Source: a virus. Taken from it: a stretch of 64,000 nt of DNA. Made by a program: the position numbers and the translations under genes. The first letter of the stretch is position 1. Each line of letters opens with the position of its first letter. The stretch covers positions 32,001-96,000 of IMG/VR virus record IMGVR_UViG_3300035663_000001; one strand, written 5' to 3'. This document shows positions 17,594 through 47,130 of this stretch, one piece after another. The notes under the pieces are model-generated. The model was not told the origin of the DNA. It did no database searches and saw nothing but the letters and a program-made list of their open reading frames with translations.

Positions 17594-18067
17594 ATGACAC
17601 AGGAAAACAAATCTATTGCAACAATAAAAGAAGATCTATATGGTAAAATTTATAAACTCAATGGTCAATTCCATCGAGAAGATGGTCCGGCAATAGAAGA
17701 TTATAATGGAGATAAAGAGTGGTGGCTTAATGGTCAACGGCATCGAGAAAATGGTCCCGCTATAGAATATATTAATGGATATAAAGAATGGTTTATTCAT
17801 GGCAAAAGACATCGAGAAGATGGTCCAGCTATCGAATATTCTAATGGAACTAAATATTGGTATCTTCATGGCAAACGACATCGAGAAGATGGTCCAGCAG
17901 TAGAAGATACTACTGGCTATAAAGAATGGTGTCTGAATGGACGCCTTCATCGAGAAGGTGGCCCTGCCATAGAATATGATAATGGCGATAAAGAATGGTG
18001 GATTAATGGTCAACAATATTTAGAAGAAGAATATTGGCGAGTAGTTAAATTAAAAGCTTTATGGTAA
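17594..18067 (+). CDS. HREDGPA-repeat protein, KLKALW class
   Basis: Five repeats; ends EEEYWRVVKLKALW. Confidence 0.9.
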   Translation: MTQENKSIATIKEDLYGKIYKLNGQFHREDGPAIEDYNGDKEWWLNGQRHRENGPAIEYINGYKEWFIHGKRHREDGPAIEYSNGTKYWYLHGKRHREDGPAVEDTTGYKEWCLNGRLHREGGPAIEYDNGDKEWWINGQQYLEEEYWRVVKLKALW

Positions 18068-18071
18068 TCTA

Positions 18072-18470
18072 ATGGCAGACTATTTAATCTCATATTATGA
18101 TGATGAGAAGACATATTATCATCCAACCAAATTTTGTTACCATCGAACAGATGGCCCTGCTAAAGAATATGCTAATGGAGATAAAGAATGGTTTTTTCAT
18201 GGCAAACGACATCGAGAAGATGGTCCGGCGGTAGAGACTGCTTTAGGTAGTAAACATTGGTACTTAAATAATTATCTTCATCGAGAGCATGGTCCTGCCA
18301 TAGAATGGCAGACTGGAGATAAGGAATGGTGGCTTCATGGTCAACTTCATCGAGAAGATGGTCCGGCCAAAGAATATGCTGATGGATTGAAAGTATGGTA
18401 CCTTCAAGGTAAAAAATATACCGAAGAAGAACATTCGCGATTAGTCAAACTTAAATATTTTTGGAGATAA
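18072..18470 (+). CDS. HREDGPA-repeat protein, KLKALW class
   Basis: Four repeats; ends RLVKLKYFWR. Confidence 0.9.
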   Translation: MADYLISYYDDEKTYYHPTKFCYHRTDGPAKEYANGDKEWFFHGKRHREDGPAVETALGSKHWYLNNYLHREHGPAIEWQTGDKEWWLHGQLHREDGPAKEYADGLKVWYLQGKKYTEEEHSRLVKLKYFWR

Positions 18471-18473
18471 ATC

Positions 18474-20759
18474 TTGAGTTTTCAACAAGATGAGAAGGGA
18501 AATAAGCGATGGACCGTTAAGGGTCAATATCACCGAGAGGATGGCCCAGCTATTGAATGGGTAGACGGGACCAAGTTCTGGTACCAGAATGGTAAGAAGC
18601 ATCGTTTACATGGTCCGGCTATTGAGTGGCCGAATGGTAATCAAGAATATTACTTGCATGGTAATGCTTTTAATAAAGAAGATTACTTATCATTAATGGC
18701 TTCTTTAGCCAAGAAAGAGCCATTTATTATTTCTGGCAATACCGAAACTTCTTCGGTTGAGTATCAAAATGGAATTACCAGTTATGTTTTAAATGGGAAA
18801 TTACACCGAGAAGATGGCCCAGCTAGAGAATATGCTAATGGAACTAAAGAGTGGTGGTTTCATGGTGAGCTTCATCGAGAAGATGGACCGGCAGTAGAAG
18901 GTACTGATGGGCATAAAGAATGGTGGGTTAATTATAAATTGCATCGAGAAGGTGGTCCAGCTATCGAATGTGTTAATGGAAATAAAAAATGGTATCTTCA
19001 TAACGAATTACATCGAGCAGATGGTCCAGCGGTAGACTGGGCTGATGGATTCAAACAATGGTGGATTCATGGCGAAAACTATTCAGAACAAGACTGGAAT
19101 ATCGCCAAGAAAAAATTATCTATTGAGGCATCGTCTAATAAAAAGAAGACAACTTCTAGCTTGCCAAAGGCTGTCAAAGTGACAAATATTAAAAAGAAAA
19201 GTGTAACATCTAAAAATTCTGCTGATAATAAAAAGTTAGTTGATTCTACTCAACCGATGATGACAATAGATGAAGCTGGCACTAAGTGCTGGAAACTGAA
19301 TGACCAACTCCATCGAGAAGATGGTCCAGCGTTAGAATATATTAATGGAGCTAAATGGTGGTATCGTCATGGAGATCTTCATCGAGAAGATGGTCCGGCG
19401 ATAGAATATGCTAATGGAGATACATCATGGTATCTTAATAATAAATTACATCGAGAAGATGGGCCAGCGTTAGAGAGTGCTGAGGGTCTAAAATTTTGGT
19501 ACCTGCAAGGTAACCAATATACTGAAGCTGGGTGGAAGAAGAAAGTTTCTGCGATGAAGAAGAAAGATATTAAGTCTAAAACTGCGTCTCATGAAGCTAC
19601 TGATTCTACTCAACCAGTGATGGAAGTAGACAACTATGGAATTAAGCGATGGAAATTAAATGGTAGATTACATCGAGAGGATGGTCCAGCAGTAGAATCT
19701 ATTAATGGAAATAAAGAGTGGTATTGTCATGGCCAACTTCATCGAGTAGATGGTCCTGCCATAGAATGGTATGATGGAGATAAATGGTGGTACCTGAAAG
19801 GTAAAAAATATACTGAAGCTGGGTGGAAGAAGCAAGTTTCTTCGATGAAGAAGAGAGATGTTAACTCTAAAACTGTGTCTCATGAAGCTAATGATCCTAC
19901 TCAACAAGTAATGGAAGTAGTTGAAGATGGCACTAAGTACTGGAAACTAAATGGTCAATTACATCGAGAAGATGGTCCGGCCATAGAATGGTTTAATGGA
20001 CGTAAAGATTGGTATCTTCATGATAAACTTCATCGAGAAGATGGACCCGCTTTAGAATATACTGATGGTAGTAAATTTTGGTATCTTCATGGTCAATGCC
20101 ATCGAGTAGATGGTCCGGCGATAGAGTGGACTGATGGAGATAAGTATTGGTATCTTCATGGGAAATTACATCGAGACGATGGGCCAGCTATCGAATGGTG
20201 TAATGGAGATAAAAAATGGTTCCTTCAAGGTAAAGAATATACAGAAGAAGAGTATGGTAAAAAACTTTTTCCAGCAGTCAATACCATCGCAAAACCAGCC
20301 GATTCTGCTTGGCAACATTTAACCTCTGATCTATCTCACGGAACTTTCCGAGTAGCCGCTAAGACTATTCCCAAAACTGCTCGTACTGCCTTATTAGCTT
20401 TTCTCAAAACTAAGAAAGTTAAAAAGAGCTGGCTTCTTTCAGCCGAAGAGATGATGTCCACCGAGTTGGGTTTAGCCTTTATTCAGCAAGTCTTAGCCTG
20501 GAGTTTTAGGTCTCTACCTCAACTGAAGGAAGACCCCAGGGCAACAGCTTTGGCTAATGAATGGGCGATTGATAGCGTAGCTATTATTGGAAATGAAGTC
20601 ACTCAAGAATTAGCTGCATATTTTGCTCCAATTATTTCTCAAGTTATGGAATTGCCTTCCTCTAACATTAGAGTATCCCCTCTGACTTCTACAGATCGCT
20701 CTTTAGAAGAAGAGGAAATTGAGACTATGGAAACTCTCCAACAACAGGCAACAAGTTAA
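18474..20759 (+). CDS. HREDGPA-repeat protein, long class (largest member)
   Basis: Five modules plus shared C-terminal domain; TTG start uncertain. Confidence 0.9.
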   Translation: MSFQQDEKGNKRWTVKGQYHREDGPAIEWVDGTKFWYQNGKKHRLHGPAIEWPNGNQEYYLHGNAFNKEDYLSLMASLAKKEPFIISGNTETSSVEYQNGITSYVLNGKLHREDGPAREYANGTKEWWFHGELHREDGPAVEGTDGHKEWWVNYKLHREGGPAIECVNGNKKWYLHNELHRADGPAVDWADGFKQWWIHGENYSEQDWNIAKKKLSIEASSNKKKTTSSLPKAVKVTNIKKKSVTSKNSADNKKLVDSTQPMMTIDEAGTKCWKLNDQLHREDGPALEYINGAKWWYRHGDLHREDGPAIEYANGDTSWYLNNKLHREDGPALESAEGLKFWYLQGNQYTEAGWKKKVSAMKKKDIKSKTASHEATDSTQPVMEVDNYGIKRWKLNGRLHREDGPAVESINGNKEWYCHGQLHRVDGPAIEWYDGDKWWYLKGKKYTEAGWKKQVSSMKKRDVNSKTVSHEANDPTQQVMEVVEDGTKYWKLNGQLHREDGPAIEWFNGRKDWYLHDKLHREDGPALEYTDGSKFWYLHGQCHRVDGPAIEWTDGDKYWYLHGKLHRDDGPAIEWCNGDKKWFLQGKEYTEEEYGKKLFPAVNTIAKPADSAWQHLTSDLSHGTFRVAAKTIPKTARTALLAFLKTKKVKKSWLLSAEEMMSTELGLAFIQQVLAWSFRSLPQLKEDPRATALANEWAIDSVAIIGNEVTQELAAYFAPIISQVMELPSSNIRVSPLTSTDRSLEEEEIETMETLQQQATS

Positions 20760-20760
20760 T

Positions 20761-21162
20761 ATGATTAATAAGAAAATGCCCATTATGTCCACTACCTTTG
20801 CTGGTGGAAAAATTTGGAAATTAAATGGACTATATCATCGACAAGATGGTCCTGCCATTGAAAGACACAATGGCTCGAAAGAATACTACCTGTTCGGCCA
20901 ACTTCATCGAGAAGATGGTCCAGCCATTATTAACCGTAATGGTGACCAAGAATGGTGGAGTCATAATCAATTACACCGAGATGATGGTCCAGCGGTAGAA
21001 TATGCTGATGGAACTAAGATGTGGTATTTTCACGGTCTTCTCCATCGAGAAGGCGGGCCAGCCATTATCTATCCCAATGGAGTAGAATTATTTTACCTAG
21101 AAGGTAAAGAATTAGAACCTGAAGAATATTCTCAAAAACTTCTAATTAAAAATGAATTTTAA
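20761..21162 (+). CDS. HREDGPA-repeat protein (short)
   Basis: Four repeats. Confidence 0.85.
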   Translation: MINKKMPIMSTTFAGGKIWKLNGLYHRQDGPAIERHNGSKEYYLFGQLHREDGPAIINRNGDQEWWSHNQLHRDDGPAVEYADGTKMWYFHGLLHREGGPAIIYPNGVELFYLEGKELEPEEYSQKLLIKNEF

Positions 21163-21214
21163 TATCTTATGGGTCACCAAAGATAGTTTATCTGATTTTC
21201 GACTGGAGAATTAA

Positions 21215-21619
21215 ATGAGAATTCTAATTTTAGATGACGACCAATTTCGCCATAATTTTTTCCGAGAATCTTTTATTGCAGACGAAGTAATTAGTGTGCA
21301 TAAATTTTCTGAATTCTTGCATCATTTACACACCGGTTCTCCTTGGGATTTAATTCACTTAGACCATGATTTATGTGATTTGGTGGAAGGTGATACTTTT
21401 GTCGATGATTTTGGTAAACAGCAAGAGTTTAATGGTCAACATGCGGCTTGGCAGATTTGTCAACTAACAGATAATCTGTTACCTAAACAGATTATCATTC
21501 AATCGGTGAATGATGATGGGGCGTTGGCTATGTTAAAAATTATCAAAGCTCGTGGTGTAGAAGTTAAGTGGGAACCTTTTGCAGAATGCCCTCCAGATTT
21601 AGAGGTATTACATGACTAA
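21215..21619 (+). CDS. Stand-alone receiver-like protein (cyclic-phosphate-processing receiver type)
   Basis: MRILILDDDxxR...DLIHLDHDL...IIIQSVN; SD GGAG. Confidence 0.7.
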   Translation: MRILILDDDQFRHNFFRESFIADEVISVHKFSEFLHHLHTGSPWDLIHLDHDLCDLVEGDTFVDDFGKQQEFNGQHAAWQICQLTDNLLPKQIIIQSVNDDGALAMLKIIKARGVEVKWEPFAECPPDLEVLHD

Positions 21620-22844
21620 CCCTTCTTTTTTAATGTGTGTTGATCTTGATGGAAATAAAAGTTACTATAATCCTGATGAGGATTATCTCCATCGAGAGGA
21701 TGGTCCAGCCATAGAACGGGTTAATGGAAATAAAGAATGGTGGCTTAATGGTCAGCGACATCGAGAAGATGGTCCGGCCATAGAATGGTCTAATGGAAAT
21801 AAACAATGGTATCTTCATGATCAACTACATCGAGAAGATGGTCCAGCAGTAGAGCTGTTTAATGGATATAAAGAATGGCGTCTTCATGACAAATTACATC
21901 GAGAAGATGGCCCAGCACTAGAATATTCTAATGGAGATAAATTCTGGTATCTTCAAGGCGAAAAATATTCATAAACCGAGTGGATGAAAAAAGTGGCTGC
22001 CATGAAAAAGAAAACTGCCGCTCCAACCCATCAACAGATTGATTCTACTCAGCCAGTGATGGAAGTAGATAAAGATGGCAATAAGTTTTGGAAGTTGAAT
22101 GGTCTCTTACATCGAGAAGATGGGCCAGCCGTAGAATATCCTAATGGAAATAAATGCTGGTGTTTTCATGGAAAACTCCATCGAGAAGATGGTCCAGCTA
22201 TAGAATATAATAATGGGGCTAAATGTTGGTGTATTCATGGTAAACTCCATCGAGAAGATGGGCCAGCATTAGAAATGCCTAATGGATATAAAGAATGGCG
22301 GCTTCAAGATAAAATCTACACTGAAACCGAGTGGAAAGAAAAAACAGCTAATATAAATAAGAAATGTGTCTCTCCATCTAATGGAGAGATAAATGTCCTG
22401 CCTTCAGCATGGAATTATTTTACTGCTGATGTAAATCAAGCTGCCTTTAGAGTAGCGGCTAAATCTATTTCTAAAACCGCCAGAGTAATGTTACTTGCTT
22501 TTCTGAAAAACAAGCAAGTAAAAAAGAGCTGGATTAAAACAGCTAAAGAAATTATGGAGACAGAATGGGGTTTAGCTTTTATTCAACAGATTCTAGCTTG
22601 GATTTTTAGATATCTGCCATCATTGCAAAATGAACCTCGAGCTCAAGCATTAGCTAATGAATGGGCTATTGATAGTGTAGCTATCATTGGAAATGAAATG
22701 TTATCAGAAGTAATTTCGTTTTTGAAACCCATTATGTCTCAAGTAATAGAACTTCCTCATCCTTCAATCAGGATTTCTGAATCTTCTAACACAGCAGAAG
22801 AAGAATTACTTGAACTGCCAGCAGTCAAACATCAAACAGTTTGA
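21612..22844 (+). pseudogene. Long-class repeat gene split by an in-frame TAA at 21972-21974
   Basis: Reads GEKYS*TEWMKKVAAM in one frame; paralogs have Q or E at this position. Confidence 0.75.
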
Positions 22845-24017: not shown

Positions 24018-24122
24018 CTATGACATATATGTTTATTATCATTGGATTAATGGCTGCTAGTTTTATAGTTCAATCTATTATTGTTTGGGTCTTATGGTCT
24101 TCGTGGGAAGATTAAAAACCAC

Positions 24123-24437
24123 ATGCAAGAAAAGATAATTACTTTTAATGGAACAGTAAAATACTATTTTCATGGTCATTTCCATCGAGAAGATGGTCCA
24201 GCAATAGAGTGGGCTAATGGCCATAAAGAGTGGTTTCTTCATGGCAAATGGCATCGAGAAGATGGCCCAGCCCGTGAATATCATGAAAGCAAAGAATGGT
24301 GGATTCATGGCAAAAGACATCGAGAAGATGGTCCAGCTCGTGAATATCCTGGTGGGCATAAACGCTACTATCTTTGTAATAAAGAATATTCCGAAGAAGA
24401 ATATTGGCGCTTAGTAAAACTAAAAGCTTTATGGTAA
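24123..24437 (+). CDS. HREDGPA-repeat protein, KLKALW class
   Basis: MQEKI start, KLKALW end. Confidence 0.9.
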   Translation: MQEKIITFNGTVKYYFHGHFHREDGPAIEWANGHKEWFLHGKWHREDGPAREYHESKEWWIHGKRHREDGPAREYPGGHKRYYLCNKEYSEEEYWRLVKLKALW

Positions 24438-24440
24438 AGT

Positions 24441-24755
24441 ATGCAAGAAATTACAATAGATGAATACAATAAAAAATATTATTGGAATGGTCAGCTACAT
24501 CGAGAAGATGGCCCAGCTATAGAGTGGGCTAATGGAGATAAACAATGGTGGCTTCATGGCGAATTACATCGAGAAGATGGCCCAGCAGTAGAATATGCTA
24601 ATGGCACTACAGTCTGGTATTTTCATGGCCAACGTCATCGAGAAGATGGTCCAACTATAGAATGGCCTGATGGAACTAAAGAGTGGTATCTTCAAGGTAA
24701 ACAATACGCAGAAAAAGAGTATTGGCTAATGGTAAAGCTAAAAGCTTTATGGTAA
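24441..24755 (+). CDS. HREDGPA-repeat protein, KLKALW class
   Basis: Three repeats. Confidence 0.9.
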   Translation: MQEITIDEYNKKYYWNGQLHREDGPAIEWANGDKQWWLHGELHREDGPAVEYANGTTVWYFHGQRHREDGPTIEWPDGTKEWYLQGKQYAEKEYWLMVKLKALW

Positions 24756-24758
24756 AGT

Positions 24759-25145
24759 ATGCAAAAAATTGAAATAGATCAAATAGGCATTAAATATTAT
24801 TATTGGAATGATCTTCTTCACCGAGAAGATGGTCCAGCGGTAGAATGGCCTAATGGAGATAAACATTGGTATTTTCATGACCAATTTCATCGAGAAGATG
24901 GTCCGGCAGCAGATAATGCTAATGGAGATAAATACTGGTTTTTTCATGGTCAACACCATCGAGGAGATGGTCCGGCAGTAGAATGGGCTAATGGATCTAA
25001 AGAATGGTGGATTCACGATCAACTTCATCGAGAAGATGGTCCCGCAGTAGAAAATACTGATGGATCTAAAGAGTGGTACCTTCAAGGAAAAGAATATTCA
25101 GAAGAAGAATATTGGAGACTAGTAAAGCTAAAAGCTTTATGGTAA
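24759..25145 (+). CDS. HREDGPA-repeat protein, KLKALW class
   Basis: Four repeats. Confidence 0.9.
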   Translation: MQKIEIDQIGIKYYYWNDLLHREDGPAVEWPNGDKHWYFHDQFHREDGPAADNANGDKYWFFHGQHHRGDGPAVEWANGSKEWWIHDQLHREDGPAVENTDGSKEWYLQGKEYSEEEYWRLVKLKALW

Positions 25146-28086: not shown

Positions 28087-28149
28087 CTAGTTAAACTAAA
28101 ATCTTTATGGTAAAATTGGCGAATGGTTAAATTGAAAGCTTTATGGTAA
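28087..28149 (+). repeat. Two orphan copies of the KLKALW 3' junction without gene bodies
   Basis: CTAGTTAAACTAAAATCTTTATGGTAA followed by AATTGGCGAATGGTTAAATTGAAAGCTTTATGGTAA. Confidence 0.8.
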
Positions 28150-28152: not shown

Positions 28153-28467
28153 ATGCAAGAAATTAAGATAGATGAATATGGCTCTAAATATTATTGGAAT
28201 GGTCTCTTACATCGAGAAGATGGTCCAGCGGTAGCAAGTACTCGTGGTCATAAAGAATGGTGGTTTCATGGCCAACGACATCGAAAAGATGGACCAGCCG
28301 TAGAATATGCTAATGGAACTAAATTTTGGTTTCTTCATGACAAATTACATCGAGAAGATGGTCCAGCAGCAGAATATGCTAATGGAGATAAAGAGTGGTT
28401 TCTTCAAGGTAAAGAATATTCAGAAGAAGAATATTGGCGAGTAGTCAAACTGAAAGCTTTGTGGTGA
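28153..28467 (+). CDS. HREDGPA-repeat protein, KLKALW class
   Basis: Three repeats. Confidence 0.9.
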   Translation: MQEIKIDEYGSKYYWNGLLHREDGPAVASTRGHKEWWFHGQRHRKDGPAVEYANGTKFWFLHDKLHREDGPAAEYANGDKEWFLQGKEYSEEEYWRVVKLKALW

Positions 28468-28470
28468 AAT

Positions 28471-28786
28471 ATGAAAAAAATTAAAAAAGATAAATTTGGC
28501 TCTAAATATTATTATTGGAATAATAAGTTACATCGAGAAGATGGTCCGGCAATAGAATGGGCTGATGGAGGTAAAGAGTGGTATCTTCATGGTAAATTAC
28601 ATCGAGAAGATGGGCCGGCATTAGAATGGGCTGATGGAAGTAAAGGATGGTTTATCGATGATAAACTTCATCGAGAAGATGGGCCAGCAGTAGAAAAAGC
28701 TAATGGAACTAAAAAAATGGTTCCTTCAAGGTAAAGAGTATTCCGAAGAAGAGTATTGGAAATTAGTTAAGCCAAAAACTTTATGA
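28471..28786 (+). pseudogene. KLKALW-class gene frameshifted in an A7 run (28711-28717)
   Basis: Removing one A restores WFLQGKEYSEEEYWKLVKPKTL*. Confidence 0.75.
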
Positions 28787-29385
28787 TAAAAAAACGAATC
28801 AACCAGAATAATGCACAAATTTTATTAAATAAAAATGACATTATGAAGGTCCTTTTTTCCAAAGATAAGCCTCTAACTAAAAATATAGTTATAGACCTTG
28901 AAAAGGAAGAGCTAACTATTCCTCTAGGTAAAGGATCGAAATTAAAATTTGGTCCTGAAGGACTCATAACATTTATGTTAAATGGCAAATTTCATCGAGA
29001 AGATGGTCCTGCACTCATCAGCTACCGGACTCAAGAATGGTATCTTCATGGTCAACACCATCGACTAGATGGTCCAGCCGTAGAAGCCTATGAAGATAAA
29101 GAGTGGTGGATTAATGGAAAGCGCCATCGAGAAGATGGCCCAGCCAAAGAATGCGAAAATGGAGATCAAGAATGGTATCTTGATGGTAAGCTTCATCGAA
29201 CAGATGGTCCCGCTATCATAGATACTGATGGAGATAAATCATGGTATATTCACGGCTCTCTTCATCGAGAAGATGGCCCAGCCATGGAATTGTCTAATGG
29301 AACTAAAAAATGGTTTTTAAATGGTAAAAGAATAAATTCTGAAAAAGAATACTTGAAATTACTTAAGTTAAAAACTTTGTGGTGA
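28783..29385 (+). CDS. HREDGPA-repeat protein with N-terminal extension
   Basis: Five repeats; ends KLKTLW. Confidence 0.85.
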   Translation: MIKKRINQNNAQILLNKNDIMKVLFSKDKPLTKNIVIDLEKEELTIPLGKGSKLKFGPEGLITFMLNGKFHREDGPALISYRTQEWYLHGQHHRLDGPAVEAYEDKEWWINGKRHREDGPAKECENGDQEWYLDGKLHRTDGPAIIDTDGDKSWYIHGSLHREDGPAMELSNGTKKWFLNGKRINSEKEYLKLLKLKTLW

Positions 29386-34448: not shown

Positions 34449-34455
34449 AATTAAA

Positions 34456-34944: not shown

Positions 34945-34947
34945 ATT

Positions 34948-35334: not shown

Positions 35335-35774
35335 AATATAAAAATAATAAATTGGGCGATATTTATTTACGTCTCGACCGACACATTGAAATAATTAAAG
35401 ATCCTATTTTTGGTAAATTTTGTTACTATTATGATAATCTAATTCATCGAGAAGATGGTCCCGCTATCCTATATTTGAATGGTGATAAAGCTTGGTTTCG
35501 CTATGGAGAGATTCATCGAGAAGATGGGCCGGCCATAGAATATGCTAGTGGAGAAAAACAATGGTGGTTTCAAGGACAATTGCATAGATCAAATGGTCCA
35601 GCTCTTATTGATAAGAAACGCAATTATACCGCCTGGTATTATTTTGGTCTTCGCCATCGAGAAGATGGGCCAGCTGTTCAACATCATAATGGAGATAAAG
35701 AATTTTGGATTCAAAATAAAAAATATTCCGAAGCAGAATATTGGCGGATGGTTAAATTAAAATCTTTATGGTAA
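35328..35774 (+). CDS. HREDGPA-repeat protein, KLKALW class
   Basis: Starts at the ATG inside the upstream TTATGGTAA. Confidence 0.85.
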   Translation: MVKYKNNKLGDIYLRLDRHIEIIKDPIFGKFCYYYDNLIHREDGPAILYLNGDKAWFRYGEIHREDGPAIEYASGEKQWWFQGQLHRSNGPALIDKKRNYTAWYYFGLRHREDGPAVQHHNGDKEFWIQNKKYSEAEYWRMVKLKSLW

Positions 35775-35777
35775 AAT

Positions 35778-36095
35778 ATGCAAGAAATTAAAGAAGACGA
35801 ATTTGGAAATAAATTTTATTATTGGAATGGTAAATTGCATCGAGACGATGGTCCAGCCATAGAATGGGCTGATGGAAGTAAAAAATGGTATCTTCATGGC
35901 CAACTACATCGAGAAGCTGGACCAGCTATAGAAGATCCTAATGGAGATAAATGGTGGTATCTTTATGGTAAATGTCATCGAGAAGATGGTCCAGCAGTAG
36001 AAAAAGCTAATGGATCTAAAAGATGGTACCTTCAAGGTATAGGATATATAGAAGAAGAATATTGGCGTTTAGTTAAATTAAAAGCTTTATGGTAA
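35778..36095 (+). CDS. HREDGPA-repeat protein, KLKALW class
   Basis: Three repeats. Confidence 0.9.
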   Translation: MQEIKEDEFGNKFYYWNGKLHRDDGPAIEWADGSKKWYLHGQLHREAGPAIEDPNGDKWWYLYGKCHREDGPAVEKANGSKRWYLQGIGYIEEEYWRLVKLKALW

Positions 36096-36099
36096 AGAT

Positions 36100-36489
36100 A
36101 TGCAAGAAATTAAAATAGATAAAGAAGGAACTAAAAGCTACCATTATAATAGTCAATTACATCGAGAAGATGGTCCAGCGGTAGAATATAGTGATGGATC
36201 TAAAGAATGGTGGCGTCATGATCAACGCCATCGAGAAGATGGTCCAGCCGTAGTATGGATTGGTAGTAGTAAAAAATGGTATTATAATAATAAATTACAT
36301 CGAGAAGACGGCCCAGCTGTAGAATGGTCTGATAGCAGTAAAGAATGGTGGCGTCATGGTCAACGCCATCGAGAAGATGGTCCAGCTATAGAGTATTTCT
36401 ATGGAGAGAAAAACTGGTTTCTTCAAAATGAAGAAATAGAATCAGAAGAAGAATATCGGCGTTTAGTTAAGTTGAAAGCTTTATGGTAA
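36100..36489 (+). CDS. HREDGPA-repeat protein, KLKALW class
   Basis: Four repeats. Confidence 0.9.
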   Translation: MQEIKIDKEGTKSYHYNSQLHREDGPAVEYSDGSKEWWRHDQRHREDGPAVVWIGSSKKWYYNNKLHREDGPAVEWSDSSKEWWRHGQRHREDGPAIEYFYGEKNWFLQNEEIESEEEYRRLVKLKALW

Positions 36490-40633: not shown

Positions 40634-40652
40634 GAGTAACGTCAATAAGATT

Positions 40653-41461: not shown

Positions 41462-41480
41462 CTAGTTTTTACTGGCGGCT

Positions 41481-41542: not shown

Positions 41543-41548
41543 TACTGC

Positions 41549-41584
41549 GACCAACCAACGAGAGATAAGTTGGTTGGTCTTTTT
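41549..41584 (+). terminator. Intrinsic terminator-like hairpin
   Basis: GACCAACCAAC-loop-GTTGGTTGGTC followed by TTTTT. Confidence 0.6.
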
Positions 41585-41613
41585 ATTACCTTTTAATTGG
41601 AGAATTTAAAATT

Positions 41614-41943: not shown

Positions 41944-41991
41944 ACGAAATATACTAATTAAAATATATTTGATTTGTTTAAAGGAGAAAAA

Positions 41992-42222
41992 ATGAATTTA
42001 GAAGATCTTGAAGAGGCGTTAGAAGAGTTATTTCCATCAGGTTTTCATACGACTAAGGATAGTCGGGGTCAAATTATTATTATGACTGGTCTGTGTGAAG
42101 AGGATGATGGAGAGTTAGTAGAACTTCTATCTGCTGAAGATGAAGAGGATGATGATTTTGATTCTGATTTTTCATCCATGGATGATGAAGATTTTGTTGA
42201 TGAGTCTGATGACGATCATTGA
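41992..42222 (+). CDS. Acidic small protein
   Basis: SD AAGGAG. Confidence 0.65.
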   Translation: MNLEDLEEALEELFPSGFHTTKDSRGQIIIMTGLCEEDDGELVELLSAEDEEDDDFDSDFSSMDDEDFVDESDDDH

Positions 42223-42628
42223 TCTTAATCAAGAAATTAAATGCCACGAAGAAGGAGATTACTCTATTATAGAAATTTCTTGTGGCATTAAGAAATATTA
42301 TTACCGTAATGTTGGTTATCGAACTGTATATCCTAATGGATTTTCTATCTACCATAAAAATGGTACTCTTCATCGAGAAGATGGTCCTGCTATAGAGCGC
42401 CCAGATGGCCATCAAGAATGGCGTCTCAATGGTCTATTTCATAGGACTGATGGTCCAGCTTTAATAGATAAAAAAGGTAATAAAAAGTGGTATTGTAATG
42501 GAGAATTACATCGTACAGATGGGCCGGCTATTGAAATGATTAGTGGTCGCGTGTATTATTACTTACAGGGTAAAAGAATTTATTCTGTCAATAAATTTAA
42601 TCGTTTAGTTAAACTTCAATTTATTTAG
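42209..42628 (+). CDS. HREDGPA-repeat protein (start uncertain)
   Basis: Three repeats; ends RLVKLQFI. Confidence 0.8.
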   Translation: MTIIDLNQEIKCHEEGDYSIIEISCGIKKYYYRNVGYRTVYPNGFSIYHKNGTLHREDGPAIERPDGHQEWRLNGLFHRTDGPALIDKKGNKKWYCNGELHRTDGPAIEMISGRVYYYLQGKRIYSVNKFNRLVKLQFI

Positions 42629-42642
42629 AATTTACAAGACAA

Positions 42643-43104
42643 ATGAAGCCGACTTATATCTTAACCTCTAATAAAACTAAAAAATATATGTTGAATGGGC
42701 AGCTTCATCGAGAAGATGGACCGGCTATTATAAATACAAATGGAGATAAGTTGTGGTATTTAAACGATCTTCTCCATCGAGAAGATGGCCCAGCCATAGA
42801 GCGTGTTAATGAAAGTAAACATTGGTTTCTTCATGGCGAATGCCATCGAGCAGATGGCCCTGCTACTGAATATAAAGATCATACCAGATATTATCTTTAT
42901 AATAAGTTACATCGAACAGATGGGCCAGCAGTAGAGTGGAGTAATAATTCTAATTCTTATCAGGTATGGTACTTTTTAATGTCAGGTTTGACAGATTATA
43001 AAGATATAGAATATCCTGTTGAAGGAAAACGCTGGTATCTTGAAGATAAAGAATATACCGAAGAAGAATATTGGCGAATGCTTAAGTTACAAGCTTTATG
43101 GTAA
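42643..43104 (+). CDS. HREDGPA-repeat protein, KLKALW class
   Basis: Ends KLQALW. Confidence 0.9.
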   Translation: MKPTYILTSNKTKKYMLNGQLHREDGPAIINTNGDKLWYLNDLLHREDGPAIERVNESKHWFLHGECHRADGPATEYKDHTRYYLYNKLHRTDGPAVEWSNNSNSYQVWYFLMSGLTDYKDIEYPVEGKRWYLEDKEYTEEEYWRMLKLQALW

Positions 43105-43409
43105 AGTATGATGAATTTGGTATTAAAAGATATTTAGTAAATGGAGAATTACATCGAGAAGATGGCCCGGCCGTAGAATTTAGCAATGGAGAAAAACATT
43201 GGTGTCTTCATGGTCAGCTTCATCGAGAAGATGGACCTACAGTAATATATGCTAATGGAAGTAAAAACTGGTATTTGCATGATCGATTGCATCGAGAAGA
43301 TGGTCCAGCGATAGAAAACGCTAATGGAGAGAAATGGTGGTACCTTCAAGGTAAACAATATACAGAAGAAGAATATTGGCGGACGGTTAAATTAAAAACT
43401 TTATGGTAA
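43098..43409 (+). CDS. HREDGPA-repeat protein, KLKALW class
   Basis: Starts at ATG within the junction; ends KLKTLW. Confidence 0.85.
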   Translation: MVKYDEFGIKRYLVNGELHREDGPAVEFSNGEKHWCLHGQLHREDGPTVIYANGSKNWYLHDRLHREDGPAIENANGEKWWYLQGKQYTEEEYWRTVKLKTLW

Positions 43410-44101
43410 AAATTAAAGAAAAAAATTTTAATAGGTATTTAATACAGAGCTTGTGCGTTCTATTTACTCTACTAATTTATAGTATATTTCTGGGTTGGAA
43501 ACTAGGTATACTTTTAGTAGTAAGTATCTCTTTACATGAGATGAGTCATCTTTGGGCGGCCCAAAGATTGGGAATGAAAACTCATGGTTTTATCTTGTTA
43601 CCTTTTATTGGAGGCTTGGCTTTTATTGGAGGAACTTATAAAAGTCATAAACATAATGTCATTGTGTCTTTAGCCGGTCCCTTGGGTGGAAGTTTATTTG
43701 CGGCATTGACAGCCGTTCTATATCAGTTAACCGGCCTTTTAATTCTGAAAGAAACGGTAGTTTTAATGAGCATATTAAATATATTTAATATGCTTCCGCT
43801 AGCATTTTTAGATGGCGGACAAGTTTTTAATTGTATTGGAAGCTCTATTGATAAACGTTTAGGATTTTATCATTTAATTTTTACTTCAGTAGTAATTGTA
43901 TTCTTCTTATGGAAGATTAATGTCATCTTAGCGGTGGCTATTATTCTGCTTTCTTCCTTAAGAATATTAGATGATTACTCTAATATCTTTAAAAAGAAAA
44001 AGGTATTTGTTGCCTTAACATTAAGTGAGATATTTCAAACACTACTAGCTTGGTTATTTATTTACTACCTACTACTATTTCTATTACTTACCTTTATCTA
44101 A
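43403..44101 (+). CDS. M50/site-2 membrane metalloprotease
   Basis: HEMSH, AGP and NMLPxxxLDGG motifs; multiple hydrophobic segments. Confidence 0.88.
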   Translation: MVKIKEKNFNRYLIQSLCVLFTLLIYSIFLGWKLGILLVVSISLHEMSHLWAAQRLGMKTHGFILLPFIGGLAFIGGTYKSHKHNVIVSLAGPLGGSLFAALTAVLYQLTGLLILKETVVLMSILNIFNMLPLAFLDGGQVFNCIGSSIDKRLGFYHLIFTSVVIVFFLWKINVILAVAIILLSSLRILDDYSNIFKKKKVFVALTLSEIFQTLLAWLFIYYLLLFLLLTFI

Positions 44102-44357
44102 ATTACTAAAAATTAGGTTAAGTAGTACAGCAACACTTCCCCCTATTAGATCCCCCGATCATTTGTCGAGAGACACTTCGTATATTAAAATCTTTTAACG
44201 TGTCTAAAGCTATAAATATATTTAACACAAACGCGGCTAGTGGAAGCGTCACAGCTAGGTTTTAAACTTTAAAAATATGTATAATTTCAGGATGACTGTT
44301 TATAAATTGTTCTTAAGGCTAGTCAAGATTTAATCCCAGTGCCAGCATAAAATGATC

Positions 44358-44675
44358 ATGCAAAAGATAAAATCTGATAAATATGGAAATAAATATTATT
44401 TTTGGGACCTTTGTCTTCATCGAGAAGATGGTCCGGCCGTAGAATTTGTTAGCGGAACTAAAGAGTGGTATATTCACGACAAACTCCATCGACTAGATGG
44501 TCCAGCGATAGAATATTTTGATGGAGGTAAATCATGGTATCTTCATGGTCGACGCCATCGAGAAGATGGCCCGGCATTAGAATTTATTAATGGATACCGA
44601 GAATATTACCTTCAAGGTAAAGAATATTCAGAAGAAGAGTATTGGCGAGTGGTTAAATTAAAAGCTTTATGGTAA
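44358..44675 (+). CDS. HREDGPA-repeat protein, KLKALW class
   Basis: First gene of a six-gene array. Confidence 0.9.
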   Translation: MQKIKSDKYGNKYYFWDLCLHREDGPAVEFVSGTKEWYIHDKLHRLDGPAIEYFDGGKSWYLHGRRHREDGPALEFINGYREYYLQGKEYSEEEYWRVVKLKALW

Positions 44676-44678
44676 AAT

Positions 44679-45065
44679 ATGCAAGAAATTAAGATAAATA
44701 AATATGGTACTAAATTTTATTATTGGAACGGTCAGCTTCATCGAGAAGCTGGACCCGCCATAGAATTTACTAATGGCAGTAACGAATGGAGGCTTTATGA
44801 TCGTTGGCATCGAGAAGCTGGGCCAGCAATAGAATATATTAATAAATATAAAGCTTGGTATGTTAATGGTAAAAGACATCGAGAAGATGGGCCTGCTCTA
44901 GAATATGTTAGTGGATATAAAGAATGGTATCATCATGGCGATCTACATCGAGAAGATGGACCAGCCGTAGAAGATGCTAATGGTACTAAATATTGGTGCC
45001 TTCAAGGCAAAAGATATTCCGAAGAAGAATATTGGAGATTAGTCAAGCTAAAAGCATTATGGTAA
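44679..45065 (+). CDS. HREDGPA-repeat protein, KLKALW class
   Basis: Four repeats. Confidence 0.9.
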   Translation: MQEIKINKYGTKFYYWNGQLHREAGPAIEFTNGSNEWRLYDRWHREAGPAIEYINKYKAWYVNGKRHREDGPALEYVSGYKEWYHHGDLHREDGPAVEDANGTKYWCLQGKRYSEEEYWRLVKLKALW

Positions 45066-45068
45066 AGT

Positions 45069-45386
45069 ATGCAAGAAATTACAATAGATGAACACGGGAC
45101 TAAAAGATATTATTGGAATAACCAATTACATCGAGAAGATGGTCCTGCGATAGAATATGCTAATGGATCTAAAGAGTGGTGTCTTAATGGTCAATATCAT
45201 CGAGAAGATGGCCCGGCATTAGAATATTCTAATGGAGACAAATTCTGGTATTTGCATGATCAATTTCATCGAGAAGATGGTCCGGCCGCAGAATATGCTA
45301 ATGGAGATAAAGAGTGGTTCCTTCACGGTAAAAAATATACAGAAGAAAAATATTGGCGTTTAGTTAAGCTAAAAGCTTTGTGGTAA
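45069..45386 (+). CDS. HREDGPA-repeat protein, KLKALW class
   Basis: Three repeats. Confidence 0.9.
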   Translation: MQEITIDEHGTKRYYWNNQLHREDGPAIEYANGSKEWCLNGQYHREDGPALEYSNGDKFWYLHDQFHREDGPAAEYANGDKEWFLHGKKYTEEKYWRLVKLKALW

Positions 45387-45389
45387 AAT

Positions 45390-45638
45390 ATGCAAGAAAT
45401 TACGATAGATAAATTTGGCACTAAAAGATATTTTTGGAGTAATAAACTCCATCGAGAAGATGGACCAGCAATAAAATATATTAATGGATATAAACAATGG
45501 TATCATCATGGTCAACGGCATCGAGAAGGTGGTCCGGCCATAGATTATGTTAATGGATTTAAAAAATGGTATCTTCAAGGTGAATCATATTCAGAAGAAG
45601 AGTATTGGAGATTAGTTAAATTAAAAGCATTATGGTGA
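45390..45638 (+). CDS. HREDGPA-repeat protein, KLKALW class
   Basis: Two repeats. Confidence 0.9.
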   Translation: MQEITIDKFGTKRYFWSNKLHREDGPAIKYINGYKQWYHHGQRHREGGPAIDYVNGFKKWYLQGESYSEEEYWRLVKLKALW

Positions 45639-45641
45639 AGT

Positions 45642-46028
45642 ATGCAAGAAATTAAAATAGATGAACGTGGGACTAAAAGATACTATTGGAATGGCCAACT
45701 CCATCGAGAAGATGGACCAGCTATCGAATGGTATGATGGAAATAAATATTGGTATCTTCATGGTCAACGACATCGAGAAGATGGTCCGGCTGTAGAGTAT
45801 GTTAATGGAGATAAATATTGGTATCGTCATGATCAACTACATCGAGAAGATGGTCCAGCCGTAGAGTGGAGTAATGGATCTAAAGAATGGTTGCTTCATA
45901 ATCAACTCCATCGAGAAGATGGTCCGGCAGTAGAATATGTTGATGGTACTAAATTTTGGCATCTTAAAAATAAGAGATACACAGAAAAAAAGTATTGGCG
46001 AATGGTTAAATTAAAAGCTTTATGGTAA
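45642..46028 (+). CDS. HREDGPA-repeat protein, KLKALW class
   Basis: Four repeats. Confidence 0.9.
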   Translation: MQEIKIDERGTKRYYWNGQLHREDGPAIEWYDGNKYWYLHGQRHREDGPAVEYVNGDKYWYRHDQLHREDGPAVEWSNGSKEWLLHNQLHREDGPAVEYVDGTKFWHLKNKRYTEKKYWRMVKLKALW

Positions 46029-46032
46029 AGTA

Positions 46033-46281
46033 ATGCACGGAATTAATATAGACAAAAATGGAAATAAATTTTATTATTGGAATGATCGATATCATCGAGA
46101 AGACGGTCCAGCGATAGAATTTTCTAATGGAAATAAATGGTGGTATCTTCATGATCTCTTACATCGAGAAGATGGGCCAGCGGTAGAATATGCTGATGGA
46201 TATAAAGAGTGGTATCTTCAAAATAAACAATATACAGAAGAAGAATATTGGCGAATACTTAAATTAAAAACTTTATGGTAA
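46033..46281 (+). CDS. HREDGPA-repeat protein, KLKALW class
   Basis: Two repeats. Confidence 0.9.
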   Translation: MHGINIDKNGNKFYYWNDRYHREDGPAIEFSNGNKWWYLHDLLHREDGPAVEYADGYKEWYLQNKQYTEEEYWRILKLKTLW

Positions 46282-46307
46282 AGTATGCAAGAAATTGAAA
46301 GGTACGT

Positions 46308-47130
46308 ATGAAACAAGGTTTTTCCTGCCCAAGTCCCGAGATATTTGTTCCGATTGACCTCAGTAAATGTACTGATGTTTTTCCTCCAGGTTTGTACGAA
46401 ACCTGTTATGACCGTCAATATGGGTTTTTATTTTAAAAAATTAGATATTGAGCAAAGAAGAATCTTTGCTTTTCAAGATGATACGAGTGACTTTATCATT
46501 AAAGACATCCAAAAATTTTGGACCCTGAAAGATAAGTACGCAGCATATCAAATGCCATTTAAGAGAGGAATCTTAATGTATGGACCGCCCGGATGTGGTA
46601 AGTCATCTATTATCTCTTTGTTGACATCTAATGTCACTTCTAAAGATGGCGTCGTAATTAAGTTTAATACTAACATCGACGTTTATAAAGAGTGTCTCTC
46701 TAAATTTAGAGAAATTTATCCGGATAAACCGATCATTGTTCTATTAGAAGATTTAAATTATATACTAGATAGTATTGATGAATCAGATTTTCTAAACATG
46801 TTAGATGGTTTAGAAAAATTTTCACACTCTACAGTATATCTTGGAACTACTAATTACATTAAAGATTTACAAAATAACATTAAAAATAGACCCAATAGAT
46901 TCGATCTAGTTTTAGAAGTTAAGCCTCCTCAAGCAAAAATTAGAAAAGAATATTTGCAAAAATTACTGTTAGGGAAATCTAAAATTGAAAACTTAGACCA
47001 ATGGGTCAAAGATACTGCTGGTTTTTCTTTTGCACATCTAGAAGAATTATTCAAATCTGTTTTCTTATTTGGAAGTGATTATCGATCTTCTATCACTAGA
47101 ATTAAAAGTATGATTGCGAATTCCGATTGA
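46308..47130 (+). CDS. AAA+ ATPase, probably frameshifted near 46425-46429
   Basis: GPPGCGKS, LLED, FLNMLDG, TTN and RPNRFD; a plausible N-terminus lies in another frame from ATG 46308. Confidence 0.85.

What the first reader, a model, noticed from the sequence alone, without database searches (positions are those of the whole stretch)
17594..46311. Cassette-like arrays of variable repeat mini-proteins with a conserved gene junction and C-terminal KLKALW tag
Seen: about 22 short genes lie in six clusters (17.6, 24.1, 28.2, 34.0, 42.2 and 44.4 kb). Each has 2-5 copies of a 23-aa HREDGPA repeat with variable residues at fixed positions, and most share an MQEIxID start and an EEEYWRLVKLKALW end. 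The DNA junction AAAGCTTTATGGTAA-N3-ATGCAAGAAATT recurs. Nine junctions have an exact 3-nt spacer, which puts consecutive genes in the same frame (e.g. 24437/24441, 44675/44679, 45638/45642). Inference: this is a diversified binder repertoire with a variable beta-sheet surface and a constant docking or sorting tail, expanded by recombination at the junction. It could act in counter-defence or host-protein targeting. I do not recognise a described system with this layout.
Basis: partly seen in the sequence, partly recalled or inferred. Interest (0 to 1): 0.9.

Follow-up and report, generated by a model that had tools for sequence, protein, structure and literature searches.

The report
Phage arrays of MORN-like binder genes
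A huge uncultured lake-water phage spends about a quarter of this DNA on dozens of small sister genes built from a 23-residue beta-hairpin repeat with a fixed frame and a few free surface positions, probably a set of protein binders, from a very large virus-borne family that nobody has studied.

Summary
The finding's span holds 28 repeat genes, 21 with the KLKALW-type tail. The 128,541-base viral contig holds 74, which is 27% of its DNA.

AlphaFold gives a confident beta-hairpin solenoid plus a C-terminal helix (pLDDT 96). Its nearest solved folds are MORN proteins, but the MORN HMMs do not match.

Variation sits at the same five or six columns per repeat, here and in nine other phage arrays. 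Those columns change at about the synonymous rate or faster.

The head and tail are parts of the module, not free-end tags. The same head, repeats and helix recur internally in fused multi-module proteins.

Copies are old (median 54% identity). Long contigs from four lake metagenomes are letter-identical to the window. No reverse transcriptase was found.

Other phages carry similar arrays, each with its own constant tail. Two bacterial isolates carry them between mobC and relaxase genes.

Function is inferred: early-expressed protein binders of mobile elements. This scan met the family before on other DNA. My paper searches found no description.

The parts
2400..3917 (+). Long multi-module family member (505 aa, 7 motif hits). 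It has three head-repeats-helix modules joined by linkers, then a shared ~150-aa helical C-terminal domain.
5712..6017 (+). Small family member without the KLKALW tail (101 aa, 2 units)
6499..7410 (+). Family member with the shared helical C-terminal domain (303 aa)
8737..10224 (+). Long multi-module member (495 aa, 8 units) with the shared C-terminal domain
12014..14855 (+). Three further members (326, 123 and 340 aa) with other C-terminal ends
17594..18470 (+). Two tail-bearing mini-genes (157 aa with 5 units; 132 aa with 4 units)
18474..20759 (+). 761-aa multi-module member (15 units) ending in the shared helical C-terminal domain
20719..21974 (+). Two members without the standard tail (147 and 120 aa). 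A cREC_REC receiver-domain gene (21215-21619) lies between them.
21984..22844 (+). 286-aa member: one module (3 units plus helix 114-127), then the shared C-terminal domain
24081..25145 (+). Array of three tail-bearing mini-genes (3, 3 and 4 units) with 3-nt junctions
28087..28149 (+). Two orphan tails (LVKLKSLW-stop and NWRMVKLKALW-stop) with no gene body: deletion scars
28153..29385 (+). Three members: 104 aa with tail, 87 aa truncated without tail, 200 aa with tail
34029..36489 (+). Array of six tail-bearing mini-genes (4, 5, 4, 4, 3, 4 units). One junction is the 7-nt ATGGTAA overlap.
42140..43409 (+). Array of three members (162 aa with variant tail, 153 aa, 103 aa)
43403..44101 (+). Peptidase M50 (site-2-protease type) gene. 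Its start overlaps the last array gene through the same ATGGTAA junction. It is a neighbour; any link is unproven.
44352..46281 (+). Array of six tail-bearing mini-genes (3, 4, 3, 2, 4, 2 units). The gene at 44679-45065 was modelled.
46285..46311 (+). Orphan head (MQEIERYV-stop): a scar at the end of the array
46345..47130 (+). AAA ATPase gene directly after the array. It is a neighbour; any link is unproven.

Best explanation
What it is (shown).
- It is a massively expanded family of small cytoplasmic repeat proteins in a huge uncultured lake phage.
- One module is a starting beta-hairpin (the 'MQEIKID' head), then 1-7 copies of a 23-residue hairpin unit, then a closing amphipathic helix (the 'EEEYWRLVKLKALW' tail). 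The unit consensus is G-x-K-x-W-Y-x-H/N-G-x-L-H-R-E-D-G-P-A-I/V-E-x-x-N.
- The predicted fold is a single-layer MORN-like beta-solenoid.
- Modules occur as separate, tightly coupled genes in operon-like arrays, and also fused 2-5 in a row in longer proteins.
- The frame is held by purifying selection.
- About six positions per unit are free. The most variable ones flank the hairpin turn and alternate along the next strand.

How it evolves (shown).
- It evolves by old whole-gene duplication and by in-register gain or loss of 23-residue units.
- Whole modules are occasionally deleted at the module border.
- It is not driven by current shuffling or by a mutator.

What it does (inferred).
- Each copy binds a different protein partner through its variable ridge.
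- Together the copies form a germline set of binders that the mobile element expresses inside the cell.
- The most likely purpose is to hold or block host proteins (defence or takeover targets) at or soon after entry.
- The closing helix is mainly a structural cap of the module. A second role as a common contact is possible but not shown.
For: Structure:
- AlphaFold2 on 53 aligned family members gives pLDDT 96.1 and pTM 0.82: hairpins plus helix 115-127.
- All of the best solved-structure matches listed at E <= 0.1 are MORN-repeat proteins or subunits of ciliary/axonemal complexes. Examples are TbMORN1 6t68 (E 2.9e-4), MORN4 6jle, and radial-spoke and central-pair complex chains.
- MORN repeats are described as protein-protein interaction modules (PMC7725318, abstract and section 33 read).

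Pattern of variation:
- Column entropy is 3.0-3.3 bits at -10, -8, -5, +9 and +10. It is 0 bits at H, R, G and P (209 units).
- The same columns vary in nine arrays from other viral contigs.
- pN/pS is 1.34 at the variable columns against 0.46 elsewhere on this contig. Over eleven sets it is 0.83-2.51 against 0.25-0.86.
- In younger arrays the third codon base is fixed per column while bases 1-2 vary. In L028, column -10 is NNC and column +7 is NNT. In L081, column -10 is NNA.

Selection on the protein:
- Tail codons vary synonymously: Arg is CGA 21 / AGA 22, and Leu uses 6 codons.
- 59 intact copies persist at a median of 54% identity.

Module-intrinsic ends:
- Fused proteins repeat head, units and helix internally.

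Mobile-element context:
- At least 555 confirmed stretches in viral contigs.
- 33,320 cluster representatives at E <= 1e-3.
- Nearest protein-atlas clusters are 94-100% viral.
- In Janthinobacterium and Duganella isolates, seven-gene arrays lie between mobC/nikA-like and relaxase genes and overlap them by 4 nt.
- In Acidovorax, one copy lies near a relaxase and a DNA methylase.
- In this window the arrays sit among helicase, RNA-ligase, tRNA and synthetase genes, not among recognised structural genes.
Against: - No partner, expression data or phenotype exists. The binding role is inferred from fold and variation pattern only.
- pN/pS near 1 at the variable columns in 5 of 11 sets is also what unconstrained surface positions would give. 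My counts are uncorrected, partly saturated, and sensitive to codon bias.
- I could not inspect model coordinates. 'One variable ridge' rests on strand register (secondary structure plus columns), not on measured distances.
- One distant family member is fused to a phage tail-collar domain and EF-hands (1 of 7 long members scanned). This points to a virion role for at least some members.
- Three of the six isolate-genome loci whose neighbours I scanned show no mobilisation genes.
Confidence: 0.5

Rival explanations
1. Virion decoration or adhesin set. The mini-proteins dock on the capsid, tail or fibres through their constant ends and show the variable ridge to the outside, widening what the particle can stick to.
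For: - One distant member carries a phage tail-collar domain.
- Relatives occur in Agrobacterium phage Atu_ph07. A review describes that phage as having hair-like fibres (PMC7824862, passage read).
- Each array has its own constant end, which would fit docking on a lineage-specific lattice.
Against: - In this window the arrays sit among helicase, RNA-ligase, tRNA and synthetase genes.
- The same kind of array lies inside mobilisation operons of non-phage elements, where there is no virion.
- Head and helix also occur internally in fused proteins.
Confidence: 0.15
2. Self-assembling scaffold. The conserved face and helix let many paralogs join each other, helix in groove, into a mixed lattice or compartment. 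The variable positions are simply unconstrained.
For: - MORN1 proteins dimerise through their C-termini and can oligomerise (PMC7725318, abstract).
- H, R, G and P are invariant and there is an aromatic face.
- pN/pS is near 1 in several arrays.
Against: - A scaffold would not need 59 diverged copies kept intact.
- It would not need the same columns to stay free in ten independent arrays.
- It would not need pN/pS above 1 in the youngest arrays.
Confidence: 0.1
3. Arrays of immunity or antitoxin proteins. They would be like the MORN-variant YwqK-type antitoxins and the tandem immunity genes of polymorphic toxin loci (recalled, not from a call), each neutralising one toxin met in hosts or rival elements.
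For: - The fold class is similar.
- The genes are small and tandem, have no signal sequences, and sit on mobile elements.
Against: - The MORN_2 model (PF07661) gives no match on the contig even at E <= 10.
- No toxin-like neighbour came up among the neighbours I scanned with Pfam, but those scans covered only selected ORFs.
- This rival is really a special case of the best explanation.
Confidence: 0.1
4. Active diversification machine. Either a diversity-generating retroelement rewrites the variable codons, or cassettes are currently shuffled by recombination at the junction.
For: - Third codon base fixed while bases 1-2 vary, which resembles retroelement-driven change.
- The DNA junction is conserved.
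- Orphan tails and an orphan head exist.
Against: - No reverse transcriptase in 6 of 6 records, two of them at least 96% complete.
- Conserved codons rich in A stay fixed, including the synonymous third base of CGA (200 of 209). Adenine-directed mutagenesis would scramble that base.
- For only 2 of 59 genes is the most similar copy the adjacent family gene.
- For 2 of 209 units the nearest unit lies in the same gene, against 3.0 expected by chance.
- Long contigs from four runs are identical to the window.
Confidence: 0.04
5. Read-through polyprotein. In-frame stop-NNN-ATG junctions would let ribosomes make multi-module chains from the arrays.
For: - 24 of 50 junctions are in frame.
- Fused multi-module relatives exist.
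- A tRNA with anticodon CTA lies at 23943-24018.
Against: - 26 of 50 junctions are out of frame or overlapping.
- The stops are TAA 47, TGA 9 and TAG 3, so an amber reader could serve 3 of 59.
Confidence: 0.03

Closest known systems
MORN repeat proteins (TbMORN1, MORN4, junctophilins, radial-spoke proteins; Pfam PF02493)
   Same: - 23-residue period.
- Beta-hairpin units stacked into a single-layer sheet.
- Aromatic ladder.
- They are the best structural matches.
- They act as protein-protein interaction modules (PMC7725318, abstract and section 33).
   Different: - The defining sequence motifs (GxG, Gly10, YEGEW) are replaced by H-R-E-D-G-P-A and K-x-W-Y.
- PF02493 and PF07661 find nothing on the contig at E <= 10.
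- A profile search of PDB sequences finds no relative.
- TM-scores are only 0.41-0.48.
Repeat-protein multigene families of giant viruses (ankyrin, MORN, FNIP and others)
   Same: - Many paralogs of a repeat scaffold in clusters, taking a large share of a viral genome (PMC5753266, passages read).
- Direct relatives of this repeat occur in Harvfovirus, Hyperionvirus, mimivirus R871 and megaviruses at 33-43% identity.
   Different: - Here the host is bacterial and the proteins are very small single modules.
- The genes are translationally coupled.
- Each array has its own constant head and tail.
Poxvirus ankyrin/PRANC (F-box-like) families (recalled, not from a call)
   Same: A variable repeat part for the target plus a constant C-terminal element, in many paralogs.
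   Different: The constant helix here is also found internally in fused proteins, so it need not be an adaptor. No partner machinery is known.
Lineage-specific expansion of a zinc ribbon (~35 copies) in Bacillus phage G
   Same: A large single-family expansion in a jumbo phage, called 'unprecedented' in a comparative review (PMC7824862, passage read).
   Different: - A different fold and a different proposed role.
- The present contig has 74 copies in 128.5 kb.
- That review does not contain the word MORN.
Pfam DUF6745
   Same: It is the only curated model that touches the repeat.
   Different: - Matches cover only about profile positions 52-107 of 206.
- Among the eight proteins scanned, only the 761-aa member passes the cut-off; none of the six small genes does.
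- The family has no known function, and no paper in the library names it.

Membership tests
MORN repeat (Pfam PF02493; structure-based definition of Sajko et al. 2020) | 23-residue repeat period | tested here: met
   177 of 204 successive motif pairs are 23 residues apart.
MORN repeat (Pfam PF02493; structure-based definition of Sajko et al. 2020) | Each unit is a beta-hairpin plus loop, stacked into an elongated single-layer sheet | tested here: met
   AlphaFold2 model with pLDDT 96.1. Top Foldseek PDB matches are MORN proteins. This is a prediction, not a solved structure.
MORN repeat (Pfam PF02493; structure-based definition of Sajko et al. 2020) | Sequence motifs GxG, Gly at position 10 and YEGEW (PMC7725318 section 33), i.e. 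a match to the family HMM | tested here: not met
   PF02493 gives 0 matches on the contig at E <= 10. It is absent from the Pfam scans at E <= 1. The unit consensus is different.
MORN repeat (Pfam PF02493; structure-based definition of Sajko et al. 2020) | Tail-to-tail dimerisation through the C-terminal repeats | not testable with these tools
   Needs purified protein (size-exclusion chromatography with light scattering, or crystals).
MORN_2 / YwqK-type antitoxin (Pfam PF07661) | Match to the family HMM | tested here: not met
   0 matches at E <= 10; 5 candidates were scored.
MORN_2 / YwqK-type antitoxin (Pfam PF07661) | A cognate toxin gene next door | tested here: inconclusive
   No toxin family came up among the neighbours scanned, but many small neighbours were not scanned.
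DUF6745 (Pfam PF20530) | Whole-domain match over the curated cut-off (27 bits) | tested here: not met
   Six small genes score 0-25 bits. Only long multi-repeat proteins pass, and only through profile positions ~52-107 of 206.
Diversity-generating retroelement target | A reverse transcriptase on the same element | tested here: not met
   PF00078 is absent from the contig and from 5 of 5 other array-bearing records, two of them at least 96% complete. The window's own record is only 28% complete.
Diversity-generating retroelement target | Variation confined to template adenines | tested here: not met
   A-rich conserved codons stay fixed, including the silent third base of CGA (200 of 209).
Viral repeat-protein multigene family (giant-virus type) | Many paralogs of one repeat scaffold, clustered, taking a sizeable share of the genome | tested here: met
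   74 genes and 35,181 of 128,541 bases. Arrays of up to 18 genes occur in other viral contigs.

The most novel reading that the evidence does not exclude
Phages, giant viruses and mobilisable elements share a germline 'binder library'. These are arrays of tiny MORN-like scaffolds whose hairpin-tip residues are kept diverse by selection. Each scaffold is tuned to grip a different host defence or control protein as the element enters a new cell. Each lineage has its own constant end-piece that couples the binders to one common partner. In this phage that partner could be the M50 protease or the AAA ATPase encoded at the ends of two arrays. If so, this would be a widespread, unrecognised class of anti-defence system with tens of thousands of members.
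Probability: 0.22. Interest if true: 0.9.

Novelty: new variant of a known kind. Interest (0 to 1): 0.62.

Why it matters
- Scale. The family is very large: 33,320 cluster representatives at 50% identity. It is mostly viral and has no name beyond a weak DUF match.
- Cost to the phage. One phage fragment gives it 27% of its DNA, twice the copy number of the expansion a jumbo-phage review called unprecedented (PMC7824862, passage).
- If they are binders aimed at host proteins. They would be a new and abundant source of phage-host interaction factors. They would also be a compact natural scaffold (about 80-130 residues, no cysteines needed) for engineered binders.
- A route to experiments. Arrays inside mobilisation operons of cultivable Janthinobacterium and Duganella strains give a tractable system, which the uncultured phages do not.
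- A practical point. These arrays break short-read assemblies. A long-read study found MORN annotations 37 times enriched in long reads (PMC9238414, passage). The family is therefore probably under-counted.

Tried and rejected
- Curated families. PHROGs and NCBIfam gave nothing useful for eight and six family proteins.
- PDB sequence profile search. Only three chance-level rows at E 0.19-0.66.
- Nearby relatives through a flanking unique gene (39183-40319) in viral contigs: none. Megablast of 20 kb of the window against phage records: no match.
- L010/L009, the only close kin found. They have the same head and tail, but their copies are 65-75% identical to many window copies, with no one-to-one orthologs and no shared flanks. 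Array order could therefore not be compared gene by gene.
- Reads. All 24 listed runs are DNA; no RNA holder is listed. The laid material was contigs. They stop inside the arrays, and the many 'joints' and 'other letters' there come with sides of 21-68 letters at 90% likeness. They are most simply paralogs laid on each other, so I draw nothing from them.
- Homodimer prediction for the 128-aa protein: no verdict (score 0.00, controls not run). It counts neither for nor against binding.
- The ~150-aa C-terminal domain of the long members. Only 6 database relatives, mostly this phage and its kin. The model there is below pLDDT 60, so no fold search was made.
- Protease and ATPase neighbours. M50 peptidase is present in 1 of 5 array-bearing records. 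AAA ATPases are present in 5 of 5, but lie near arrays in only about two. This is a lead only.
- Promoter and terminator scan of 33.5-46.6 kb. Promoter-like sites were fewer than in shuffles (41 against 54.9), and no informative pattern emerged.
- Model coordinates are not given by the tools, so the variable residues could not be mapped in three dimensions.
- Supplementary files of the papers were not consulted. Those of PMC7824862 may list lineage-specific expansions that bear on novelty.
- Paper searches that found nothing on this family: 'HREDGPA', 'DUF6745', MORN repeat + phage + paralog, MORN + bacteriophage + tandem, jumbo phage + multigene family + tandem, MORN repeat + huge phage, MORN + jumbo phage (only the listing was read).

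Full report
**Where the window lies.** The window is bases 32001-96000 of a single 128,541-base virus record. The record is classed as linear and estimated 28% complete. That would imply a genome of several hundred kilobases (my inference).
- Nearly all genes are on one strand.
- There are four tRNA genes.
- There are a UvrD-type helicase, an RNA ligase, a class II aminoacyl-tRNA synthetase and a Ro60/TROVE protein.
- Several proteins match phage protein families.
- Ten public runs, all labelled lake water metagenome, hold half or more of the sampled words of a 5-kb stretch.

**Checking the observation.** The six clusters and the gene structure are as described.
- Inside 17594-46311 there are 28 ORFs with the motif. 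Of these, 21 have the tail and 12 have the MQEI-type head. They cover 46% of the span.
- The junction pattern with a 3-nt spacer occurs 10 times, against none in any of 100 shuffles.
- The picture is larger than reported. There are 74 motif-bearing ORFs on the contig, 59 with the tail. There are 278 repeat units. They take 35,181 bases, or 27% of the contig.
- An exact codon pattern for H-R-E-D-G-P-A occurs 191 times, against 0 for the reversed control.
- The 3-nt spacer holds for 24 of 50 adjacent pairs. Eight have 4 nt. Six use an ATG inside the preceding TTATGGTAA.
- Stop codons are TAA 47, TGA 9 and TAG 3.
- So the tight spacing fits translational coupling, and the shared frame is incidental.

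**The protein.** No curated family explains it.
- Pfam gives only sub-threshold matches of the small genes to a ~45-residue stretch of DUF6745. PHROGs and NCBIfam give nothing.
- An AlphaFold2 model of the 128-residue copy at 44679-45065, with 53 aligned relatives, is very confident: pLDDT 96.1 and pTM 0.82. It shows short paired strands throughout and one helix at residues 115-127.
- Foldseek against solved structures returns MORN proteins first: Trypanosoma and Toxoplasma MORN1, MORN4, radial-spoke and central-pair subunits, and junctophilins. TM-scores are modest, 0.41-0.48.
- Sajko et al. define a MORN repeat as 23 residues: a hairpin of two 6-residue strands plus a 6-residue loop, with GxG, Gly10 and YEGEW motifs. 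They describe the repeats as protein-protein interaction modules (PMC7725318; abstract and section 33 read).
- The period and the predicted architecture fit. The motifs do not. PF02493 and PF07661 find nothing on the contig even at E <= 10. A profile search of PDB sequences finds no relative.
- I therefore file it as MORN-like in fold and not as a member of the Pfam families.

**Fixed frame, free positions.** In 209 units from tail-bearing genes, H, R, G and P never change, and A, E, D, K and W rarely do.
- Columns -10, -8, -5, +9 and +10 carry 3.0-3.3 bits of entropy, and column -2 carries 2.6 bits.
- Columns +10 and -10 flank the N-G turn. Column -8 alternates with the conserved K and W on the next strand.
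- By strand register, +10, -10 and -8 should therefore point to one side near the hairpin tips.
- The unit consensus and the same variable columns recur in nine arrays from other viral contigs.

**Rates of change.**
- Crude Nei-Gojobori counts give pN/pS of 1.34 at the six variable columns and 0.46 elsewhere on this contig. Across eleven sets the values are 0.83-2.51 against 0.25-0.86. Single columns reach 1.9 (column -10) and 2.8 (column +10).
- These are uncorrected proportions on partly saturated data, so they show 'free or faster', not proven positive selection.
- A second, independent sign comes from young arrays. The third codon base is column-specific and nearly fixed while bases 1 and 2 vary. 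In L028, column -10 is NNC with at least nine amino acids, column +7 is NNT, Arg is CGT in 33 of 33 units, and Leu at -5 is CTA in 33 of 33. In L081, column -10 is NNA. In L062, column -5 is NNA.
- Because the fixed base depends on the column and not on the amino acid, codon usage does not explain it. Amino-acid-changing substitutions have outrun silent ones at these codons.

**Head and tail are parts of the module.** The head aligns with the first strand of a unit, and the model makes it the first hairpin. The tail begins with a Ser/Thr-x-x-Glu cap and is the only helix.
- The decisive point is the long proteins at 2400-3917, 8737-10224, 18474-20759 and 21984-22844. They consist of two to five modules. 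Each has a PVMEVDKDGTK-type head, 2-5 units and a YTEAEWKKKVAAMKKK-type helix. The modules are joined by Lys/Ser/Thr-rich linkers and followed by a shared ~150-residue helical domain.
- In the model of the 286-residue member, the module and its helix (114-127) are again confident, while the rest is not.
- A helix that works in the middle of a chain does not need a free C-terminus. This argues against a degron-like or sorting tag and for a capping element.
- The tail is kept by selection on the protein. Its Arg, Lys, Val and Leu codons vary silently.
- Only the last four codons and the first four of the next gene show less silent variation than expected. Ala is GCT in 36 of 38, Lys is AAA in 49 of 49, and Gln is CAA in 32 of 33. 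This fits a short re-initiation signal (inference).

**History.**
- Paralogs are about equally distant: median 54%, maximum 76% identity. For only 2 of 59 genes is the most similar copy the adjacent family gene.
- For only 2 of 209 units is the nearest unit in the same gene, against 3.0 expected by chance.
- So there is no recent tandem duplication or intragenic homogenisation.
- Lengths fall in 23-residue steps. Two body-less tails (28087-28149) and one body-less head (46285-46311) show that units and whole modules are gained and lost at repeat and module borders.
- Long contigs from four lake metagenomes dated 2020 and 2024 match the window with no differences. They include pieces that run into arrays: 29764-35103, 39109-43315, 43353-44658 and 44667-45317. 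I see no sign of rapid change between samples.
- A retroelement mutator is excluded as far as the data go. There is no reverse transcriptase in 6 of 6 records, and silent A positions in conserved codons are not scrambled.

**Wider family.**
- One word-indexed search gave 1,421 relatives in the size range.
- An exhaustive profile search gave 33,320 cluster representatives at E <= 1e-3 and 19,078 at E <= 1e-10.
- The nearest protein-atlas clusters are 94-100% viral.
- Predicted viral structures with the same fold and 33-52% identity come from uncultured tailed phages, Agrobacterium phage Atu_ph07 and Celeribacter phage P12053L. They also come from Harvfovirus (there named 'MORN repeat-containing protein'), Hyperionvirus, mimivirus R871 and megaviruses.
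- Among the 79 loci kept, many hold arrays: 18 genes in 12 kb (L023), 15 (L062), 11 (L081, L086), 10 (L028, L047, L055).
- Each array has its own constant head and its own constant C-terminal end, unrelated between arrays. Within-array tail identity is 0.62-0.95 in seven of nine arrays; the two low values are partly register artefacts.
- Only L009/L010, and partly L019, share the tail seen here.

**Cellular genomes.**
- 207 of 488 candidate stretches were confirmed, across many phyla. Most loci hold a single copy: 52 of 79.
- Janthinobacterium sp. (L096) and Duganella (L123) carry seven-gene arrays with 4-nt overlaps. They lie between a MobC/NikA-like gene and a gene with a weak, below-cut-off relaxase match in L096.
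- An Acidovorax copy lies near a similarly weak relaxase match and a DNA methylase.
- Three other isolate loci (L128, L133, L117) show no such neighbours.

**Reading.** The shown facts are these:
- a small, confidently predicted protein-interaction scaffold;
- a frame under constraint, with a handful of free positions that are the same in every lineage;
- dozens of old copies kept intact;
- tight operons;
- residence on phages, giant viruses and mobilisable elements.

The best fit is a germline set of protein binders made inside the cell. Which proteins they bind, and whether the purpose is counter-defence, takeover or something else, is not shown.

In this window one array runs directly into an M50 peptidase gene (43403-44101) and another ends at an AAA ATPase gene (46345-47130). 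The peptidase is absent from four other array-bearing records. The ATPase is near arrays in only some. I keep them as leads.

**Novelty.**
- Repeat-protein multigene families are familiar from giant viruses (PMC5753266, passages).
- A review of 224 jumbo phages calls a ~35-copy zinc-ribbon expansion unprecedented and does not contain the word MORN (PMC7824862, passages).
- A long-read study notes that MORN annotations are 37 times enriched in long reads (PMC9238414, passage).
- None of my seven paper searches found a description of these arrays (see Tried and rejected).
- This scan has met the family at least eight times on other DNA, with follow-ups reaching the same general reading. Notes on this same genome agree on the copy number and the orphan tails.

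**What this report adds:**
- the scale on this contig;
- the fused multi-module proteins, which show that head and tail are module-intrinsic;
- the lineage-specific ends;
- the column-specific third-base pattern;
- the arrays inside mobilisation operons of cultivable bacteria.

Noticed in passing
window 23943-24018 (also 23587-23657): ARAGORN calls a tRNA with anticodon CTA (it reads TAG and is labelled tRNA-Pyl) just upstream of the 24.1-kb array, and a tRNA-Cys with anticodon ACA. In a crude gene set, TAG ends 25 of 193 ORFs. Whether TAG is partly read through in this phage is open.
   Followed up: partly
window 1-16000 (contig 16-48 kb): G+C is 41-51% here against 32-38% in the rest of the contig. 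The long multi-module family members lie in the G+C-richer part.
   Followed up: no
all 209 repeat units of tail-bearing genes on the contig: The Arg of the motif is CGA in 200 of 209 units. The fourfold third bases of the neighbouring Gly, Pro and Ala codons are scrambled and G+C-rich. Val/Ile at column +7 end in A (GTA 70, ATA 68), and column +10 codons end in T (181 of 209). Every Gly-Pro pair also makes a GGNCC site. I have no explanation for why silent sites differ so much.
   Followed up: partly
window 43403-44101: A phage-encoded M50 (site-2-protease type) membrane peptidase with an HExxH motif. Its start codon lies inside the stop region of the last array gene.
   Followed up: partly
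window 16781-17254, 21215-21619, 30129-30473: A RadC-like JAB domain protein, a cREC_REC receiver-domain protein (inside the 17.6-22.8 kb cluster) and a cytidine/dCMP deaminase.
   Followed up: no
window 47914-50479 and 60936-62489: A class II aminoacyl-tRNA synthetase (D/K/N type), an aminotransferase-like protein and a Ro60/TROVE protein with a vWA domain.
   Followed up: no
L005:5343-7088 (-), L007:3275-4534 (-), L008:2043-3191 (+): A thymidylate-synthase-like gene with an HNH endonuclease-like insert, and two transposase-like genes (PHROG 506/12300), on the contig outside the window.
   Followed up: no
L096:3929-9125 and L123:3547-8263: In Janthinobacterium and Duganella isolates, seven family mini-genes with their own constant head and tail sit between a MobC/NikA-like gene and a gene whose relaxase match in L096 is below the curated cut-off. 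All overlap by 4 nt.
   Followed up: partly
G003 (record of L023), about 1-2.7 kb and 182-203 kb: In a 204-kb viral record estimated 96% complete, the motif copies (86 exact matches) cluster at both ends of the record. This is reminiscent of the terminal multigene families of large eukaryotic viruses.
   Followed up: no
protein P0206 (1480 aa): A distant family member combines the repeats with a phage tail-collar domain and EF-hand pairs.
   Followed up: no
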